IMG/VR virus record: IMGVR_UViG_2711768034_000012
Length of the DNA: 9,302 bases
Direction: 5' to 3' (one strand)
DNA from: a virus
Lineage: Duplodnaviria; Heunggongvirae; Uroviricota; Caudoviricetes
The notes under the pieces: generated by a model
What the model was told of the DNA's origin: nothing
What the model saw: only the letters and a program-made list of their open reading frames with translations
The model's database searches: none
Shown: in pieces, positions 1,388 through 6,566 of the stretch
Position numbering within the stretch: position 1 is the first letter of the stretch
How the letters are laid out: each line of letters begins with the position of its first letter
Made by a program: the position numbers and the translations under genes

Positions 1388-1426
1388 ATTGCAGCAAGGT
1401 GGTTATAATTGAAAGAATATTTAGAT

Positions 1427-2884
1427 ATGAATACATCTCATGTAAGAGTTGTTACTCATATGTGTGGGTTTCTGGTTTGGCTCTATAGTCTTTCAATGTT
1501 GCCACCAATGGTTGTAGCATTGTTTTATAAAGAAAAAAGCCTGTTCGTTTTCTTTATAACTTTCGTTATGTTTTTTTGCATTGGTGGCGGAGCGTGGTAT
1601 ACAACTAAGAAATCTGGCATTCAATTACGTACCCGTGATGGGTTTATTATAATTGTAATGTTTTGGATTTTGTTTTCTGTTATTAGTGCATTCCCTTTAT
1701 GGATTGACTCAGAACTTAATTTAACGTTCATTGATGCTCTGTTTGAAGGGGTTTCTGGAATAACAACAACAGGAGCAACTGTAATTGATGATGTTAGTTC
1801 ATTACCTCGGGCATATTTGTACTATCGGTCACAGTTAAATTTTATAGGTGGTTTAGGAGTTATTGTTCTGGCGGTTGCTGTATTGCCATTATTGGGTATT
1901 GGTGGTGCAAAGCTTTATCAGTCAGAAATGCCGGGGCCATTTAAGGATGACAAACTCACTCCCCGCCTGGCCGATACGTCACGGACACTGTGGATAACTT
2001 ATTCTTTATTAGGTATTGCTTGTATTGTCTGTTATAGACTTGCAGGAATGCCTTTGTTTGATGCTATTTGTCACGGGATTTCCACAGTTTCGCTTGGTGG
2101 TTTCTCAACTCATAGCGAGAGTATCGGATATTTTAATAACTATTTGGTTGAGCTGGTGGCTGGTTCTTTTTCCCTGCTATCGGCTTTCAACTTCACTCTT
2201 TGGTATATTGTTATTAGCAGGAAAACGATAAAACCTTTAATCAGAGATATTGAACTTCGTTTCTTTCTGTTAATAGCCTTAGGGGTGATCATTGTTACCT
2301 CTTTCCAGGTCTGGCATATAGGTATGTATGACTTGCATGGAAGTTTTATTCATTCGTTTTTTCTTGCCAGCTCCATGCTCACTGATAATGGTTTAGCTAC
2401 GCAGGATTATGCAAACTGGCCCACGCACACGATAGTGTTTTTGCTGTCGTCAAGTTTCTTTGGGGGATGTATAGGTTCAACTTGTGGTGGAATTAAGTCA
2501 CTTCGATTTCTTATACTTTTCAAACAAAGCAAACACGAGATAAATCAGCTTTCTCATCCCAGAGCGTTGTTGAGTGTAAATGTAGGAGGGAAGATAGTTA
2601 CAGATCGTGTAATGAGGTCTGTATGGAGTTTCTTTTTTCTTTATACTCTCTTCACGGTGTTTTTTATACTGGTGTTAAATGGTATGGGATATGATTTTCT
2701 TACATCATTTGCAACAGTGGCTGCATGTATTAATAATATGGGATTAGGTTTTGGGGCTACTGCATCGTCATTCGGAGTGCTTAATGACATTGCAAAATAT
2801 TTAATGTGCATAGCTATGATTCTTGGTCGCCTTGAAATTTATCCTGTTATTATATTGTTTTCAGGTTTTTTTTGGCGCTCCTAA
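1427..2884 (+). CDS. trkG: TrkG, Trk-system K+ uptake membrane protein (TrkH/TrkG family)
   Basis: 485 aa from ATG 1427 (MNTSHVRVVTHMCGF...), polytopic and hydrophobic, with the GxG-type selectivity-filter-like repeats typical of TrkH/TrkG. Strongly AT-rich coding sequence. The ORF track starts at an in-frame TTG at 1409, which sits 6 nt after an AGGTGG Shine-Dalgarno-like sequence, so the start is ambiguous. Confidence 0.9.
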   Translation: MNTSHVRVVTHMCGFLVWLYSLSMLPPMVVALFYKEKSLFVFFITFVMFFCIGGGAWYTTKKSGIQLRTRDGFIIIVMFWILFSVISAFPLWIDSELNLTFIDALFEGVSGITTTGATVIDDVSSLPRAYLYYRSQLNFIGGLGVIVLAVAVLPLLGIGGAKLYQSEMPGPFKDDKLTPRLADTSRTLWITYSLLGIACIVCYRLAGMPLFDAICHGISTVSLGGFSTHSESIGYFNNYLVELVAGSFSLLSAFNFTLWYIVISRKTIKPLIRDIELRFFLLIALGVIIVTSFQVWHIGMYDLHGSFIHSFFLASSMLTDNGLATQDYANWPTHTIVFLLSSSFFGGCIGSTCGGIKSLRFLILFKQSKHEINQLSHPRALLSVNVGGKIVTDRVMRSVWSFFFLYTLFTVFFILVLNGMGYDFLTSFATVAACINNMGLGFGATASSFGVLNDIAKYLMCIAMILGRLEIYPVIILFSGFFWRS

Positions 2885-2968
2885 TATATGGCTGATTTAT
2901 AATTGTGAGTTTAATATTATATTGACTCACTCATTGATCCAATACCTAACTTTACCAGCAACACCTCC

Positions 2969-3005
2969 GCCCCCAGTAGCACTGGCTGCTGGGGTGCGTT
3001 TTATT
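2969..3005 (+). terminator. Candidate intrinsic terminator downstream of trkG
   Basis: Hairpin CCCCAGTAGC/GCTGCTGGGG (one mismatch) with a 4-nt loop, followed by TGCGTTTTATT. Confidence 0.35.
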
Positions 3006-3021
3006 CATAAAGCAAGGCTGT

Positions 3022-3810
3022 ATGAGCGAGAAATTAAAGATAGTCTATCGCCCATTACAAGAATTGTCACCGTATGCGCACAACGCCAGGACGCACAGTA
3101 CTGAGCAGGTGGCACAACTGGTAGAAAGTATTAAGCAATTCGGCTGGACTAATCCGGTGCTGATTGACGAAAAGGGCGAAATTATTGCGGGTCACGGTCG
3201 TGTTATGGCGGCTGAAATGCTCAAAATGGATTCTGTTCCGGTCATTGTTCTGTCTGGCCTGACGGATGAGCAGAAAAAGGCGTACCGCCTGGCAGATAAT
3301 CGCCTACCGATGAATGCTGGCTGGGATGAAGATCTGTTGCGGATGGAGCTGTCGGACCTAATCAATGCTGATTTTGATGTCTCCCTGACAGGCTTCGGCC
3401 CGACAGAAATTGATGAACTGTTGACGGATGTTTTGCCCGGTACAGGAAATAAGGAGGAGCCGTATACGACGAAAATTGATACGCCTGTTTATGAGCCGTC
3501 GGGCGGTAAACCGGATATCAGTGAACTGTATGACGATACGAAAACTCAGGAGCTGATCAGCCGGATACGTTCGGCGTCCCTTGATCCTGATATTGAGAAA
3601 TTCCTCCTGTGTGCGGCAGAACGTCACACGGTGTTTAATTTCAGCAGAATTGCGGACTATTACGCTCATGCCCCCGCTGAAATTCAGTGCCTTTTCGAGG
3701 AGTCGGCGCTGGTGATCATTGATTATCAGCAGGCTATTGAAAATGGATTTGTCCGAATGACGCAGCGCATGGTGGCGATCATGCATAGCGGGGAGGAGGA
3801 ATATGCGTGA
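3022..3810 (+). CDS. ParB N-terminal domain (ParB/Srx fold) protein, YnaK-like, with no fused enzymatic domain
   Basis: 262 aa. The N-terminus (KIVYRPLQELSPYAHNARTHSTEQVAQLVESIKQFGWTNPVLIDEKGEIIAGHGRVMAAEMLKMDSVPVIVL...YRLADNRL) has the ParB N-terminal domain signature including a GHGR-type motif. It is followed by DFDVSLTGFGPTEIDELL, as seen after ParB domains in phage ParB-methyltransferase fusions. SD AAGG precedes ATG 3022. Confidence 0.72.
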   Translation: MSEKLKIVYRPLQELSPYAHNARTHSTEQVAQLVESIKQFGWTNPVLIDEKGEIIAGHGRVMAAEMLKMDSVPVIVLSGLTDEQKKAYRLADNRLPMNAGWDEDLLRMELSDLINADFDVSLTGFGPTEIDELLTDVLPGTGNKEEPYTTKIDTPVYEPSGGKPDISELYDDTKTQELISRIRSASLDPDIEKFLLCAAERHTVFNFSRIADYYAHAPAEIQCLFEESALVIIDYQQAIENGFVRMTQRMVAIMHSGEEEYA

Positions 3811-4735
3811 TGATTTTTGCGCCTTTATTCTGACTCACGGGCGACCGGACAAAGTTCTGACTTACCGGACGTGGCGTCGTGCTGGCTATACCGGGAAAAT
3901 TTTTATCGTTGTTGATGATGAAGATAAGACACGGCATCAGTACATGGCTGAATTTGGTGAACAGGTGCTGGTATTTTCCAAAGCCGATATTGCCAGTCGT
4001 TTTGACGAAGCCGATAATTTTGGTGACCACCGCTCAATTTTTTACGCCCGTAATGCCTGTTTCGACCTGGCAAAACTGGTCGGGTGTAAATACTTCATTC
4101 AGCTCGATGATGATTATCACGAGTTCCAGTTTCGGGTGGATCGCAACTATGACCAGGCCTATTTCCCGATAAGGAAACTGGATGCGATCCTTTCTGAAAT
4201 GCTGGCGTATTACGAATCAATACCCGCGCTTTCCATCGCTATGTCGCAGGGCGGGGATTTTCTTGGTGACAATGGCGGCCATGCTTCGTGGGTGAAACGC
4301 AAGGCAATGAACAGCTTTATCTGTTCGGTTGATCGACCGTTCTCATTCATGGGGCGCATTAACGAGGATGTGAATACGTACACGAATCTCGGTCGCCGTG
4401 GTGAATTGTTTATGACGATCGGTGCTGTCCAGTTAGGGCAGAAACAGACGCAGAAAAACAGCGGCGGAATGACCGAGCTGTATCTGGATTCCGGGACCTA
4501 CGTTAAAAGTTTTTATTCCGTCATGTATGCGCCGTCGTGCGTAAAAATCTCACTGATGGGCGCCAGCCATAAACGCATTCACCATCAGGTCACCTGGAAC
4601 AACGCTGCAGTAAAAATCCTTCACGAAAAATACAGGAAGAAGACACCCTGCATATTAATGGGGGTGACAAATGATTCCGTATTCGAAAGTCGAGTCTCTG
4701 GCAGCGTGCCGGATGACTGCACAACAAATCGCTGA
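3803..4735 (+). CDS. Soluble GT-A-fold-like (GT2-like) glycosyltransferase-family protein, hypothetical
   Basis: 310 aa. ATG 3803 overlaps the upstream stop (ATGCGTGA) and is preceded by the strong SD GGGAGGAGGA at 3791-3800. Motif order CAFILTHGRPDKV ... IFIVVDDED ... ARNACFDLAKLVGCKYFIQLDDDY parallels GT-A enzymes (PTYN-like first strand, DD after strand 2, ARN...DxD). No transmembrane segment is evident. Confidence 0.55.
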   Translation: MRDDFCAFILTHGRPDKVLTYRTWRRAGYTGKIFIVVDDEDKTRHQYMAEFGEQVLVFSKADIASRFDEADNFGDHRSIFYARNACFDLAKLVGCKYFIQLDDDYHEFQFRVDRNYDQAYFPIRKLDAILSEMLAYYESIPALSIAMSQGGDFLGDNGGHASWVKRKAMNSFICSVDRPFSFMGRINEDVNTYTNLGRRGELFMTIGAVQLGQKQTQKNSGGMTELYLDSGTYVKSFYSVMYAPSCVKISLMGASHKRIHHQVTWNNAAVKILHEKYRKKTPCILMGVTNDSVFESRVSGSVPDDCTTNR

Positions 4736-4922
4736 CGTTCTGGATGTTGATCTGAACCGACTGAAAGAAAATCGGGAAGCAATGACAAATTTTTACGCGT
4801 CCATCCGTAAGGGCAGAGCGAAAGGTGAAGCCGAGCTACGGGCGGCATTGTTTAAGCTTGCCAGAAAAGGGGATGCCTTTGCCCTGCGCGAACTACTCAG
4901 GGTGGATAAAAATCAGGACTAA
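4671..4922 (+). CDS. Small hypothetical protein (83 aa), possibly a DNA-binding or packaging accessory protein
   Basis: ATG 4671 preceded by a GGGGGTGA SD-like sequence. Overlaps the 3' end of the glycosyltransferase-like gene by 65 nt. Same frame as the downstream terminase-like ORF, separated by TAA plus one codon. Confidence 0.4.
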   Translation: MIPYSKVESLAACRMTAQQIADVLDVDLNRLKENREAMTNFYASIRKGRAKGEAELRAALFKLARKGDAFALRELLRVDKNQD

Positions 4923-4925
4923 CTG

Positions 4926-5552
4926 ATGAGCAGACCGGACTGGGGGGCGTTGCAGCAGGAGTATATTGCTGAATACACCCGCTCCGGTATATCTCCGGTG
5001 GCATGGTGTGAAGCAAGGGGACTGAATTACGCAACAGCCCGTCGTTACATCAAAAAACCTCCGAAAAATGCGCAGACAGAAATGCGCAAAACTGCGCAAA
5101 AAAGTGCGCAGAAAAAATCTGCGCAGACTGCACAAAAGCGGAACGGAAAATCTCAGGAAAAAAAGCCAGTATCCGATGCGTACCTGAATGAGGGCGATGC
5201 GGAAGAAATTTCGTTCTGTCCCGATGAATTCGGCGTTTCTGACCAGCAGGCGAAATTCGCAATGCTGGTTGCCCAGGGGAAAAAACTCGTTGAGGCATAT
5301 CGCCTGGCAGGATACGAGTCAGAGGGGAATGCGGCCTACGTAACCGCCAGCCAGCTCCTAAGAAATCCTAAGGTTTTTCGTGCTATCAGCTACTTCCGCA
5401 ATCAGTACCAGAAACGCTATACCGCAGACCTGGATTTACTGGTGAGTCAGTTGATGGCCATTGTCCAGGCCGACCCCAATCAGTTGGCACAATTTCGCCG
5501 TGTTAACTGCCGTTATTGCTGGGGCGAGAATCATCACTACCGCAGCAGATGA
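4926..5552 (+). CDS. Terminase small subunit-like protein (Terminase_2-type DNA-binding region), possibly C-terminally truncated
   Basis: 208 aa. N-terminal HTH-like segment (ISPVAWCEARGLNYATARRYIKK), a K/Q/A-rich low-complexity linker, then QQAKFAMLVAQGKKLVEAYRLAGYESEGNAAYVTASQLLRNPKVFRAI, which resembles the conserved DNA-binding motif of phage small terminases. Ends abruptly (RVNCRYCWGENHHYRSR*) with no large terminase gene following. Confidence 0.55.
   Translation: MSRPDWGALQQEYIAEYTRSGISPVAWCEARGLNYATARRYIKKPPKNAQTEMRKTAQKSAQKKSAQTAQKRNGKSQEKKPVSDAYLNEGDAEEISFCPDEFGVSDQQAKFAMLVAQGKKLVEAYRLAGYESEGNAAYVTASQLLRNPKVFRAISYFRNQYQKRYTADLDLLVSQLMAIVQADPNQLAQFRRVNCRYCWGENHHYRSR
5069..5133 (+). 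repeat. Array of five TGCGCA hexamers plus one degenerate TGCACA, spaced 8-15 bp, inside the terminase small-subunit-like gene
   Basis: TGCGCA at 5069, 5083, 5093, 5105 and 5120; TGCACA at 5128. Encodes the AQK/SAQ-rich linker. Confidence 0.6.
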
Positions 5553-5676
5553 AGCACCTACGATAACCAGAAAAAAAGCCTCCCCGGCTGCCGTGATCGC
5601 AAAAGCCAGTGCTGAGGCGATTAGTTGATTTTCCGTTATTCCTCCTGTGGTACTGCCCTACAGGGGGACGCATTGA

Positions 5677-6138
5677 ATGAGGTTATGGATGTTTATTCTT
5701 AATCAGAAAATTATCATTGGTGGAGAACGCTGGTTTACGCCAATGAAGGACTTAAAACCTGTAGACGGGTTAAAACTGTTGGTGGCAAGCAGCGATAACG
5801 ATCAGTATCGCTCCCGTAATGCATTAATCCGTCGCCACATTGAGAAAATGGATGCCAGTTTGCACGTCGGAACGAAGGAGTTTGATATTTCAAAGGTTTC
5901 CGAGGTGGATTCTGTTGATGATTTACTCATTGATAATGCCGCTCGTTATCTGCTGAAAGACTGGAAAGGGGTTGGTGAACTGGTTAATGGTGTTGAGGTT
6001 GCACTGGAATATACGGCAGAACGAGGGATCGCGCTGCTTAAGCAGAATCCAGAGTTGTACTGGCAGATCCTTGCAGAAGCAGCCAGCATCGCCCAGGGTA
6101 AAGAGCAGCAGAAGCAGGATACGATAAAAAAGCCATAG
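5677..6138 (+). CDS. Tail assembly chaperone (lambda gpG-like)
   Basis: 153 aa acidic protein. ATG 5677 is preceded by GGGGG at 5663-5667; an alternative in-frame ATG is at 5689. It directly precedes a -1-frame ORF and the tape-measure gene, the G/GT/H synteny of siphovirus tail modules. Confidence 0.6.
   Translation: MRLWMFILNQKIIIGGERWFTPMKDLKPVDGLKLLVASSDNDQYRSRNALIRRHIEKMDASLHVGTKEFDISKVSEVDSVDDLLIDNAARYLLKDWKGVGELVNGVEVALEYTAERGIALLKQNPELYWQILAEAASIAQGKEQQKQDTIKKP
6126..6132 (+). promoter_or_regulatory. Candidate -1 programmed ribosomal frameshift slippery heptamer A-AAA-AAG
   Basis: In-frame X-XXY-YYZ heptamer two codons before the chaperone stop (TAG 6136-6138). The -1 frame is open from here through 6446. 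Confidence 0.5.
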
Positions 6139-6446
6139 CTGCCCAGCGGTGGTTATCGGAGTTCGGGGGAGAAAGGGGGGAAAAGGCAAGATGGAAGCGA
6201 GAAAAACTCAGGTTGCCACCGATACCGGAACCAGAAATAGACCCGGTGCTTAAGGAGTTGTTGTACGCCTATTCGGTAATATCCCGTGCCCGACGTTATG
6301 CTGGAATGGCTGGGGTGCCTTTGCCTTTATCTCTGACAGAGATAAATGAATATTTAGCCACTCATCCGGTATTGATTGAGCGCGATGAATTTGAAGCAGT
6401 GATCTTTGCACTGGATGACCAGTATTTTCAGGAGCAGTGTGTGTAG
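6132..6446 (+). CDS. T segment of the tail assembly chaperone G-T frameshift fusion (lambda gpT-like)
   Basis: The -1 frame relative to the chaperone gene is open from 6132 to TAG 6444-6446 and encodes ...LPPIPEPEIDPVLKELLYAYSVISRARRYAGMAGVPLPLSLTEINEYLATHPVLIERDEFEAVIFALDDQYFQEQCV. The track ORF 6213..6446 starts at an internal TTG. Confidence 0.55.
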   Translation, partial: AIAAQRWLSEFGGERGEKARWKREKLRLPPIPEPEIDPVLKELLYAYSVISRARRYAGMAGVPLPLSLTEINEYLATHPVLIERDEFEAVIFALDDQYFQEQCV

Positions 6447-6566
6447 TTGTTAATTACGTACACTCTGTTACAGAGATGTGATGGTGTCTTTAATTAAATC
6501 GATGATGCTCCTGGAGAAAAGCATTGCGTGGCCTCGTAATCGCTATATCTACTATTATGTCGCCTG

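What the first reader, a model, noticed from the sequence alone, without database searches (positions are those of the whole stretch)
6110..6220. dnaX-like A-AAA-AAG -1 frameshift site in the tail chaperone pair
The heptamer A-AAA-AAG (6126-6132) is in phase in the G-like frame, two codons before its stop, and the -1 frame is open for a further 104 codons encoding a gpT-like segment. This is the arrangement of the conserved G/GT programmed frameshift of long-tailed phages, but using the dnaX-type heptamer rather than lambda's G-GGA-AAG. A purine-rich tract follows downstream (GGGGGAGAAAGGGGGGAAAAGG, 6165-6186) and could contribute stimulatory structure.
Basis: partly seen in the sequence, partly recalled or inferred. 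Interest (0 to 1): 0.45.

Follow-up and report, generated by a model that had tools for sequence, protein, structure and literature searches.

The report
Unannotated frameshift site in prophage tail chaperone
This is an ordinary example of the programmed -1 ribosomal frameshift that long-tailed phages use to make two tail-assembly chaperones from one gene pair, sitting in a decayed Rac-type prophage of E. coli where public annotation misses it.

Summary
A-AAA-AAG (6126-6132) is in phase in an ORF ending ...DTIKKP* (stop 6136-6138). The -1 frame then runs 104 codons to 6446.

The upstream ORF is ydaY, a tail assembly chaperone (PHROG 313, E 5e-46). In intact relatives it lies between the tail tube and tape-measure genes.

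Comparative evidence for a programmed G/GT-type frameshift is strong:
- The heptamer is invariant in 80 viral contigs.
- In 40 distinct sequences from Enterobacterales and Pseudomonas, the same position holds A-AAA-AAG, lambda's G-GGA-AAG or the near-cognate G-GAA-AAG, plus two degenerate exceptions.
- The wobble base of the preceding codon co-varies with the heptamer type.
- Third-codon-position variability switches from the G frame to the -1 frame exactly at the heptamer.
- Most sequences have no start codon for the T frame.
- The conceptual fusion aligns as one piece to fused-chaperone profiles.

The suggested purine-tract stimulator is not supported. The tract encodes conserved FGGE.GEKA, varies at synonymous sites and shows no conserved structure.

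Use of the dnaX-type heptamer in tail chaperones is already documented. In this window the prophage is defective: the tube gene is deleted and the tape-measure gene truncated. The signal is therefore an inherited relic here.

Verdict: real, ordinary, unannotated; low interest. No expression data were available.

The parts
5689..6138 (+). G-like tail assembly chaperone gene (full-length ydaY). The likely start is ATG 5689, preceded by GAGG at 5679-5682; an alternative ATG is at 5677. Product is 149 aa ending DTIKKP*.
   Evidence: ORF list and translation. PHROG 313 'tail assembly chaperone' E 4.9e-46. Precomputed Pfam PF27119.1 on all homologues. Lies between the tail tube and tape-measure genes in intact relatives. 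RefSeq annotates only a 119-aa version starting at TTG 5779.
6126..6132 (+). Slippery heptamer A-AAA-AAG, in phase with the G frame; the proposed site of tandem -1 slippage of two tRNA-Lys.
   Evidence: Invariant in 80 of 80 IMG/VR loci. Replaced at the same position by G-GGA-AAG, G-GAA-AAG, G-GGG-AAG or C-GCA-AAG in other genera.
6132..6446 (+). T-like segment in the -1 frame: 104 codons (AIAAQRW...QEQCV) plus stop 6444-6446. Translated only as the C-terminal part of a 252-aa G-T fusion.
   Evidence: PHROG 1189 E 1.4e-36 and sub-threshold Pfam Phage_TAC_18. Protein conservation starts at residue 1 of the segment, with W7 and G13 invariant in 19 diverse sequences. First possible start codon in this frame is TTG 6213.
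6133..6159 (+). Local hairpin (11 bp with several G-U pairs, -10.2 kcal/mol) starting with zero spacer after the heptamer. It is specific to the E. coli Rac clade and its role is doubtful.
   Evidence: Not conserved in other lineages and shows no covariation. With the heptamer in the P/A sites most of the 5' arm would already be inside the ribosome (inference).
6165..6186 (+). Purine-rich tract; it codes for GGERGEKA of the conserved FGGE.GEKA motif in the T segment. It contains a G6 run (6175-6180) that is polymorphic.
   Evidence: Relatives read GGCGGGGAGCAGGGCGAAAAGG at this place, so the differences are mostly synonymous.
6116..6119 (+). Weak SD-like AGGA 6 nt upstream of the heptamer (part of codons CAG GAT). 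A possible minor stimulator, but not conserved family-wide.
   Evidence: Sequence. Present in many Enterobacterales; absent in Providencia, Serratia and Pectobacterium sequences.
5535..5628 (+). Last 94 nt of the tail tube gene; the rest of the tube gene and all head genes are deleted in this window.
   Evidence: blastn against intact prophage L002; tube CDS ends at L002:7029.
6612..8132 (+). Tape-measure gene truncated to 506 codons by an internal prophage deletion (1077 aa in intact relatives).
   Evidence: Pfam TMP_2 E 2.6e-82. blastn junction at 8131. Intact gene is 3234 nt.

Best explanation
The site is the programmed -1 ribosomal frameshift signal of a phage tail-assembly-chaperone gene pair, the functional counterpart of lambda G/GT. 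Most ribosomes translating ydaY (G-like, 149 aa) terminate at TAG 6136-6138. A small fraction slip back one base, with tRNA-Lys on AAA in the P site and tRNA-Lys on AAG in the A site re-pairing with AAA-AAA. These ribosomes continue in the -1 frame for 104 codons and produce a 252-aa G-T fusion (...DTIKK-AIAAQRW...). By analogy with lambda, in intact relatives the G part would bind the tape-measure protein and the T part would recruit the tube protein, with the G:GT ratio fixed by the slip frequency. The heptamer alone, perhaps with weak local context, appears to be the signal; no conserved RNA stimulator was found. In this window the prophage is a Rac-type remnant without a tube gene and with a truncated tape-measure gene, so the signal is an inherited and probably idle copy. 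Shown here: anatomy, family assignment, synteny and comparative signatures of a frame switch. Inferred: the slip mechanism, its efficiency and the protein functions.
For: (1) Anatomy: in-phase heptamer one codon before the G stop, with the -1 frame open for 104 codons.
(2) Identity: the G part hits PHROG 313 'tail assembly chaperone' at E 4.9e-46. The conceptual fusion matches PHROG 313 as one stretch, residues 5-249 to profile positions 20-246 of 258, at 174 bits against 158 for G alone. It also raises the PHROG 8233 hit from E 0.0075 to 3.8e-8.
(3) Synteny: the order tube, G, T, tape measure holds in Salmonella phage SPF_0923, E. coli FDAARGOS_497, and Erwinia, Klebsiella, Flyfo and Pseudomonas phages.
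(4) Conservation: AAAAAAG is invariant in 80 of 80 viral loci while the flanks vary, and the 0-frame stop after it is lost in some.
(5) Motif interchange: the 40 distinct sequences hold AAAAAAG (21), GGGAAAG (8), GGAAAAG (9), GGGGAAG (1) and CGCAAAG (1) at the same codon position. The two commonest canonical motifs have equal measured shiftiness in E. coli: 0.29/4.3/39% and 0.28/3.8/43% without and with two stimulators (PMC4066793 Table S3).
(6) Synonymous covariation: the preceding Val codon is GTA in 14 of 14 AAA-type sequences and GTG in 7 of 7 GGA-type sequences.
(7) Frame switch: variability peaks at G-frame third positions upstream (1.32 against 0.57 and 0.45 bits) and at T-frame third positions downstream (1.07-1.31 against 0.3-0.8).
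(8) No T-frame start codon in 28 of 40 sequences; elsewhere the first is mostly at codons 25-27 (once at 14), downstream of conserved residues. In Providencia the permissible shift window is only about 6 codons and contains the heptamer.
(9) Precedent: G-T frameshifting is widely conserved (PMC5009743). A_AAA_AAG is already recorded for an unrelated E. coli prophage chaperone cluster (ECs1801) and for Paenibacillus phages.
Against: There is no direct expression evidence: no reporter, mass-spectrometry or ribosome-profiling data were available. No conserved stimulator was found, and A_AAA_AAG without a stimulator gave only about 0.3% in one reporter system, so the efficiency is unknown. No detectable sequence homology to lambda G or T. 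The structure prediction for G was too poor to test the fold. Two of 40 homologues (Pectobacterium G-GGG-AAG, Erwinia phage C-GCA-AAG) lack a tandem-slip motif. The nine Pseudomonas G-GAA-AAG sites allow full re-pairing only in the A site. In this window the partner genes are deleted, so there is no present selection for the product.
Confidence: 0.9

Rival explanations
1. The T-like ORF is a separate gene with its own initiation (TTG 6213, GTG 6246 or TTG 6261), as GenBank and RefSeq records annotate it, and the heptamer is incidental.
For: Gene callers annotate short independent ORFs here: 66 aa from GTG 6246 in NZ_CP095088 and 61 aa in phage SPF_0923. An AAGGAG at 6252-6257 precedes TTG 6258/6261.
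Against: The 27 codons upstream of the first possible start are conserved as protein across genera, with W7 and G13 invariant, and show T-frame wobble periodicity. 28 of 40 homologues have no start codon in that stretch, and the ones present are not conserved in position. The AAGGAG is 0-3 nt from the TTGs, too close for initiation, and is absent in relatives, which encode GEIL instead of KELL. The fusion aligns collinearly with fused chaperone profiles.
Confidence: 0.04
2. The two-frame arrangement is a mutational frameshift (pseudogene) in a homopolymer run of a once continuous GT gene, or a sequencing artefact.
For: The window is a decaying prophage. Homopolymer indel variants do occur in this region in public assemblies (L086; P0002, P0003 and P0010).
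Against: The same -1 relationship at the same codon is kept in 40 distinct sequences from about a dozen genera, including isolated phages, and with different heptamers. The only in-frame fusion found (P0001) arises from a separate 35-nt deletion. More than 1000 complete E. coli genomes carry the region at 95% identity or more.
Confidence: 0.02
3. The frame change is made by RNA polymerase slippage on the A6 run (transcriptional realignment), not by the ribosome.
For: Homopolymeric A runs can support transcriptional slippage (general knowledge; the GeneTack paper PMC3711429, mentions poly-A runs in programmed transcriptional realignment).
Against: Six A's is shorter than the runs cited there as implicated (An with n above 7). 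Homologues with G-GGA-AAG or G-GAA-AAG have only 3-4 A's yet keep the arrangement. The in-phase requirement and the covariation of the preceding wobble base fit tRNA re-pairing, not polymerase slippage.
Confidence: 0.03
4. The downstream purine-rich tract or the local hairpin is a dedicated stimulatory RNA element, making this a dnaX-like three-part signal.
For: A hairpin of -10.2 kcal/mol lies at 6133-6159, and stronger variants exist in close relatives at -14.7 to -16.8 kcal/mol. A weak AGGA lies 6 nt upstream.
Against: Folding of 6133-6222 is no better than shuffles (z = -0.24). RNAalifold on 20 diverse sequences finds only 4 bp at -1.96 kcal/mol with no compensatory change. The purine tract changes at synonymous positions while the peptide is kept, and purines alone cannot form a stem. 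The hairpin has zero spacer, whereas known -1 stimulators sit about 5-9 nt downstream (own knowledge).
Confidence: 0.1

Closest known systems
Phage lambda G/GT tail assembly chaperone frameshift (Levin, Hendrix & Casjens 1993; Xu, Hendrix & Duda 2004, 2013, 2014; summarised in PMC5009743)
   Same: Two overlapping ORFs lie between the major tail (tube) gene and the tape-measure gene. The second ORF is in the -1 frame with no start of its own. An in-phase X-XXY-YYZ heptamer ending in A-AAG sits near the 3' end of G. Several homologues of this family carry lambda's own G-GGA-AAG at the same position.
   Different: The heptamer here is A-AAA-AAG. There is no detectable sequence homology to lambda G or T (hhalign probability below 1%), and the PHROG families differ (313/1189 against 42/39/32165). 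The G stop is 1 codon after the site (6 in lambda). About 165 nt with a terminator-like hairpin separate T from the tape-measure gene, whereas in lambda T overlaps H.
E. coli prophage chaperone cluster A_AAA_AAG_25 (ECs1801, Sakai prophage Sp9) of Sharma et al. 2014 (PMC4066793, Table S4)
   Same: A tail assembly chaperone of an E. coli lambdoid prophage with in-phase A-AAA-AAG at its 3' end (AGA AAA AAG TAG). That paper lists it as a case where frameshifting 'can be safely inferred'.
   Different: It is an unrelated protein family: no BLASTP alignment and PHROG 344 instead of 313.
E. coli dnaX tau/gamma frameshift
   Same: The same A-AAA-AAG heptamer and the same proposed tandem tRNA-Lys slippage.
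   Different: dnaX has an upstream SD-like element and a downstream stem-loop, shifts at about 50% and gives a shorter product (PMC3711429). Here no conserved stimulators were found, the product is longer, and the expected level is a few per cent by analogy with G/GT systems (6-7% was measured for an HK97-like chaperone cluster).

Membership tests
G/GT-type tail assembly chaperone frameshift of long-tailed phages | The gene pair lies between the major tail (tube) gene and the tape-measure gene | tested here: met
   Met in intact relatives. In the window itself only the last 94 nt of the tube gene remain upstream, and the truncated tape-measure gene follows downstream.
G/GT-type tail assembly chaperone frameshift of long-tailed phages | The second ORF overlaps the 3' end of the first in the -1 frame and lacks its own conserved start | tested here: met
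   The -1 frame is open 6102-6446. There is no start codon in 28 of 40 homologues, and protein conservation begins at the junction.
G/GT-type tail assembly chaperone frameshift of long-tailed phages | An in-phase slippery sequence in the overlap, conserved among relatives | tested here: met
   A-AAA-AAG is in phase and invariant in 80 of 80 close loci. It interchanges with G-GGA-AAG and G-GAA-AAG at the same position, with covariation of the preceding wobble base. 2 of 40 sequences are exceptions.
G/GT-type tail assembly chaperone frameshift of long-tailed phages | Both G and the G-T fusion are made, at a fixed low ratio | not testable with these tools
   This needs a reporter assay, western blot or mass spectrometry. 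No expression data were found in the held literature.
G/GT-type tail assembly chaperone frameshift of long-tailed phages | The G part binds the tape-measure protein, the T part binds the tube protein, and neither is in the virion | not testable with these tools
   Inferred from lambda (PMC5009743).
Lambda gpG / gpT protein families (sequence homology) | Detectable sequence or profile similarity to lambda G and T | tested here: not met
   hhalign probabilities are 0.2% (G) and 0.1% (T), and the PHROG families differ. It works like lambda G/GT but is not a sequence-level member of those protein families.
Tail assembly chaperone protein families (PHROG 313 / Pfam Phage_TAC) | A significant profile match | tested here: met
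   PHROG 313 E 4.9e-46 for G and 8.2e-51 for the fusion across both parts. Pfam Phage_TAC_18 on the T part is below threshold only (20.7 bits against a cutoff of 27). The G part has no hit in the local Pfam or NCBIfam copies.
Tail assembly chaperone fold | Structural similarity to solved chaperone structures | tested here: inconclusive
   The AlphaFold2 model has mean pLDDT 52.6. Foldseek against the PDB gave no match with E <= 0.001. PDB profile searches were empty.
dnaX-type three-element frameshift signal | An upstream SD-like element about 10 nt away and a downstream stem-loop about 6 nt away, both conserved | tested here: not met
   Only a weak, non-conserved AGGA lies 6 nt upstream. No conserved downstream structure was found, and the local hairpin has zero spacer and is clade-specific.

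The most novel reading that the evidence does not exclude
The ydaY chaperone family may be a natural series of slippery-site replacements at one fixed codon position: A-AAA-AAG, G-GGA-AAG, the non-canonical G-GAA-AAG in Pseudomonas, G-GGG-AAG, and C-GCA-AAG next to a stop. The non-canonical members might work by single-tRNA (A-AAG) slippage tuned to host tRNA-Lys. In the E. coli Rac clade, the zero-spacer hairpin 6133-6159 might act as an unconventional stimulator. If so, the family could show how slip-site type and efficiency co-evolve with the host.
Probability: 0.15. Interest if true: 0.35.

Novelty: new member of a known kind. Interest (0 to 1): 0.2.

Why it matters
The practical value is in annotation. 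ydaY is listed in E. coli K-12 and in more than 1000 complete E. coli genomes as an uncharacterised 119-aa protein, and the T ORF is either unannotated or called as a short independent gene. These features are in fact one tail-assembly-chaperone pair with a programmed -1 frameshift. The correct products are a 149-aa G and a 252-aa G-T fusion in intact prophages and related phages. Mechanistically it adds nothing new. The G/GT frameshift is a textbook conserved feature, and A-AAA-AAG has already been noted in other chaperone families. The family-wide interchange of heptamers with synonymous covariation is a clean comparative illustration of selection on slipperiness.

Tried and rejected
- Pfam and NCBIfam scans of the G part found nothing. 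The T part gave only sub-threshold Phage_TAC_18 hits.
- PDB sequence-profile searches with G and T alignments found nothing.
- The AlphaFold2 model of G from a 30-sequence alignment had pLDDT 52.6, and Foldseek against the PDB returned only meaningless hits. I ran no further fold searches.
- hhalign against lambda G and T found no homology.
- I looked for a conserved stimulatory structure and found none. The single-sequence fold z-scores were -0.24 and +0.08. RNAalifold found 4 bp with no covariation. Per-sequence folds were heterogeneous.
- Independent initiation of T was considered and rejected.
- Transcriptional slippage and a mutational pseudogene were considered and rejected on comparative grounds.
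- Literature searches for ydaY plus frameshift or tail assembly found no paper describing this case. Xu et al. 2004 itself was not available in the held library, so I could not check whether its table lists a Rac-type phage.
- I tested whether the prophage cluster A_AAA_AAG_25 (ECs1801) in Sharma 2014 is this family. It is not.

Full report
**Observation.**
- The ORF 5677/5689..6138 ends GAT ACG ATA AAA AAG CCA TAG.
- A-AAA-AAG occupies 6126-6132 with its first base at codon position 3.
- The -1 frame is open from 6102 and runs 104 codons past the shift to the stop at 6444-6446. It reads KK-AIAAQRWLSEFGGERGEKARW....
- The purine tract is at 6165-6186.
- AAAAAAG by itself is not unusual in the window: 7 matches against 3.0 expected. 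Its significance lies in phase, position and conservation.

**Context.** The window is a Rac-type defective prophage of E. coli.
- It carries trkG (1409-2884), a full-length ParB-like ynaK (3022-3810), a TAGT-family glycosyltransferase (3803-4735) and a small terminase subunit (4926-5552).
- At 5535 a deletion joins this stretch to the last 94 nt of the tail tube gene.
- Next come ydaY, the T-like ORF and a tape-measure gene cut at 8131 by a second deletion. About 210 nt of a gpK/gpI-like region follow (8128-8341), then sitA on the other strand.
- Intact relatives have the order tail terminator, tube, ydaY, T ORF, tape measure (1077 aa), then M/L/K/I/J-like genes. Examples are the E. coli FDAARGOS_497 prophage and Salmonella phage SPF_0923, 99% identical over 5535-8131.
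- K-12 Rac keeps window 5787-7546, that is a 5'-truncated ydaY, the heptamer, the T ORF and a tape-measure fragment.
- About 1075 of 5426 complete E. coli genomes carry the region.
- No record I inspected annotates ribosomal slippage. ydaY is given as 119 aa from TTG 5779. The T ORF is either absent or called as a short 61- or 66-aa ORF from an internal TTG or GTG.

**Identity of the proteins.**
- The G part (5689-6135) matches PHROG 313 'tail assembly chaperone' at E 4.9e-46, on profile positions 15-149 of 258.
- The T part matches PHROG 1189 at E 1.4e-36, and matches positions 173-246 of PHROG 313 weakly.
- The conceptual fusion ...DTIKK-AIAAQRW... matches PHROG 313 as a single stretch, residues 5-249 to profile 20-246, with a higher score: 174 against 158 bits. 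It also lifts PHROG 8233 'tail assembly chaperone' from E 0.0075 to 3.8e-8. The -1 fusion is therefore collinear with families built on long, fused chaperones.
- Pfam gives only sub-threshold Phage_TAC_18 hits on the T part. NCBIfam gives nothing.
- Homologues in the large protein collection carry a precomputed Pfam accession, PF27119.1, that is not in the local Pfam copy.
- There is no detectable homology to lambda G or T or to the Sakai chaperone ECs1801.
- A structure prediction of G was too uncertain to use, with pLDDT 52.6.

**Comparative tests of the frameshift.**
- *Close relatives.* In 80 IMG/VR loci whose T part is 69-100% identical, AAAAAAG-CCAT is invariant while the neighbouring codons vary. 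The 0-frame stop after the site is replaced by sense codons in some (CCA TTG, CCA TCG), so the stop is not the conserved feature.
- *Distant relatives.* I used 34 loci from one-genome-per-species contigs and four diverged phages. They cover Escherichia, Citrobacter, Klebsiella, Dryocola, Scandinavium, Siccibacter, Providencia, Pantoea, Mixta, Serratia, Pectobacterium, Erwinia and Pseudomonas, with G identity down to about 25%.
  - The T homology is always in the -1 frame and begins at the same codon.
  - Across the 40 distinct sequences compiled from all these sets, that position holds A-AAA-AAG (21), G-GGA-AAG (8), G-GAA-AAG (9, all Pseudomonas), G-GGG-AAG (1) and C-GCA-AAG followed by a stop (1).
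- *Equivalent motifs.* A_AAA_AAG and G_GGA_AAG have nearly identical measured frameshift efficiencies in E. coli: 0.29/4.3/39% and 0.28/3.8/43% without and with two stimulators. In-phase A_AAA_AAG is strongly avoided in E. coli genes, z = -10.1 (PMC4066793 Table S3).
- *Synonymous covariation.* The preceding valine codon is GTA in 14 of 14 AAA-type sequences and GTG in 7 of 7 GGA-type sequences. This has no explanation at the protein level, but it is exactly what tRNA re-pairing in the -1 frame requires.
- *Frame switch.* Column variability peaks at G-frame third positions in the 30 nt upstream (1.32 against 0.57 and 0.45 bits). It peaks at T-frame third positions in each 30-nt block downstream (1.07-1.31 against 0.3-0.8). 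Purifying selection therefore changes frame at the heptamer.
- *No independent start.* 28 of 40 sequences have no ATG/GTG/TTG in the T frame from its upstream stop to 30 codons past the site. In the rest the first candidate is mostly at codons 25-27 (once at 14), downstream of the invariant W7 and G13. In Providencia the T frame opens 4 codons before the site and G stops 1 codon after it. That leaves a window of about 6 codons, which contains the heptamer.

**Stimulators.**
- The purine-rich tract encodes GGERGEKA of the conserved FGGE.GEKA motif. Relatives spell it differently at synonymous sites, for example GGCGGGGAGCAGGGCGAAAAGG.
- Folding 6133-6222 or 6100-6260 is no better than shuffled controls, with z = -0.24 and +0.08.
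- RNAalifold on 20 diverse Enterobacterales sequences finds only a 4-bp pairing at -1.96 kcal/mol with no compensatory change.
- The E. coli Rac clade has a local hairpin at 6133-6159 (-10.2 kcal/mol, up to -16.8 in close variants). It starts immediately after the heptamer, so most of its 5' arm would be inside the ribosome at the time of slippage (inference). Other lineages have different or no hairpins.
- A weak AGGA lies 6 nt upstream and is not conserved family-wide.
- The signal therefore seems to be essentially the heptamer. From my own recollection, not checked here, the lambda G/GT site also lacks a defined structure.

**Rival explanations.**
- Independent initiation of T, a mutational pseudogene, transcriptional slippage on A6, and a dnaX-like three-part signal were each considered. 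The comparative data argue against all four.
- Homopolymer indel variants do exist in public assemblies. L086 has a G-run deletion, and P0002, P0003 and P0010 show frame changes.
- One E. coli protein, P0001, is an in-frame G-T fusion. It was created by a 35-nt deletion between 10-bp direct repeats GCAGAAGCAG at 6073-6082 and 6108-6117. These are sporadic and do not represent the family.

**Comparison with what is known.**
- The arrangement works like lambda G/GT, and the G/GT frameshift is described as widely conserved despite low sequence similarity (PMC5009743).
- The dnaX-type heptamer in this role is not new. Sharma et al. 2014 list an E. coli prophage chaperone cluster (ECs1801) with conserved A_AAA_AAG as a case that 'can be safely inferred'. 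I confirmed AGA AAA AAG TAG there and showed it is an unrelated protein family.
- Paenibacillus larvae phage chaperones were also tentatively assigned AAAAAAG (PMC6003738).
- An HK97-like chaperone cluster gave 6-7% frameshifting in reporters (PMC3711429).
- I found no paper describing ydaY as a chaperone with a frameshift.

**Verdict.**
- This is a new, unannotated member of a very well known kind. It sits in a defective prophage where it is probably idle.
- Confidence that the site is a genuine G/GT-type programmed frameshift signal in the intact relatives is about 0.9. Direct expression evidence is still missing.
- Interest is low (about 0.2). The value lies in correcting annotation and in a clear comparative example of selection on slipperiness.

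Noticed in passing
window 5535, 8131 and 8341 (junctions); 1409-5552; 8388-9302: The window is a Rac-type prophage remnant with two internal deletions: terS joined to the tube 3' end at 5535, and the tape measure joined to a gpK/gpI-like region at 8131. It ends near 8341, next to sitA. It keeps 2.5 kb (3276-5786: full ynaK, a glycosyltransferase and terS) that K-12 Rac has lost.
   Followed up: partly
window 3022-4735: A ParB-N-domain protein (ynaK, 262 aa) overlaps by 8 nt a 310-aa protein matching Pfam TAGT, 'TET-associated glycosyltransferase' (E 1.2e-34; RefSeq name 'GREB1-related protein'). This may be a DNA-modification or anti-defence module inside the prophage.
   Followed up: no
window 5159-5165: A second in-phase A-AAA-AAG lies inside the small terminase ORF (4926-5552). 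The -1 frame closes after 8 codons, so a slip would give a truncated product. It is probably incidental.
   Followed up: partly
window 6175-6180: A G6 run inside the T segment is polymorphic among close relatives (GGGGGG, GGGTG or GGGGG). One IMG/VR locus (L086) has a 1-nt deletion there, and several assembled proteins (P0002, P0010) change frame in this region. It is either a mutational or sequencing hot spot.
   Followed up: partly
window 6073-6082 and 6108-6117: 10-bp direct repeats GCAGAAGCAG lie at these positions. An E. coli protein in the public collection (P0001, 240 aa) corresponds to a 35-nt deletion between them, which fuses G to T in frame and gives a GT-only mutant.
   Followed up: partly
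window 6447-6611, hairpin 6566-6589: A 165-nt non-coding spacer separates the T stop from the tape-measure start. It contains a terminator-like hairpin (GAAACCCAC-TTCG-CGGTGGGTTTT followed by a T run). In lambda T overlaps H, and Klebsiella and Pseudomonas relatives have extra small ORFs inserted at this place.
   Followed up: no
window 5689 versus 5779: RefSeq's 119-aa YdaY (TTG 5779) appears to be propagated from the 5'-truncated K-12 copy. The full ORF starts at ATG 5689, with GAGG 6 nt upstream, and is 149 aa, as annotated in phage SPF_0923.
   Followed up: yes
L004:1984-1995, L096 and L111-L121 (homologous shift site): Some homologues carry non-canonical sites at the same position. Erwinia phage Gungnir39 has GTC GCA AAG TAA, Pectobacterium has G-GGG-AAG, and nine Pseudomonas sequences have G-GAA-AAG. 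These suggest single-tRNA (A-AAG) slippage or decayed copies.
   Followed up: partly
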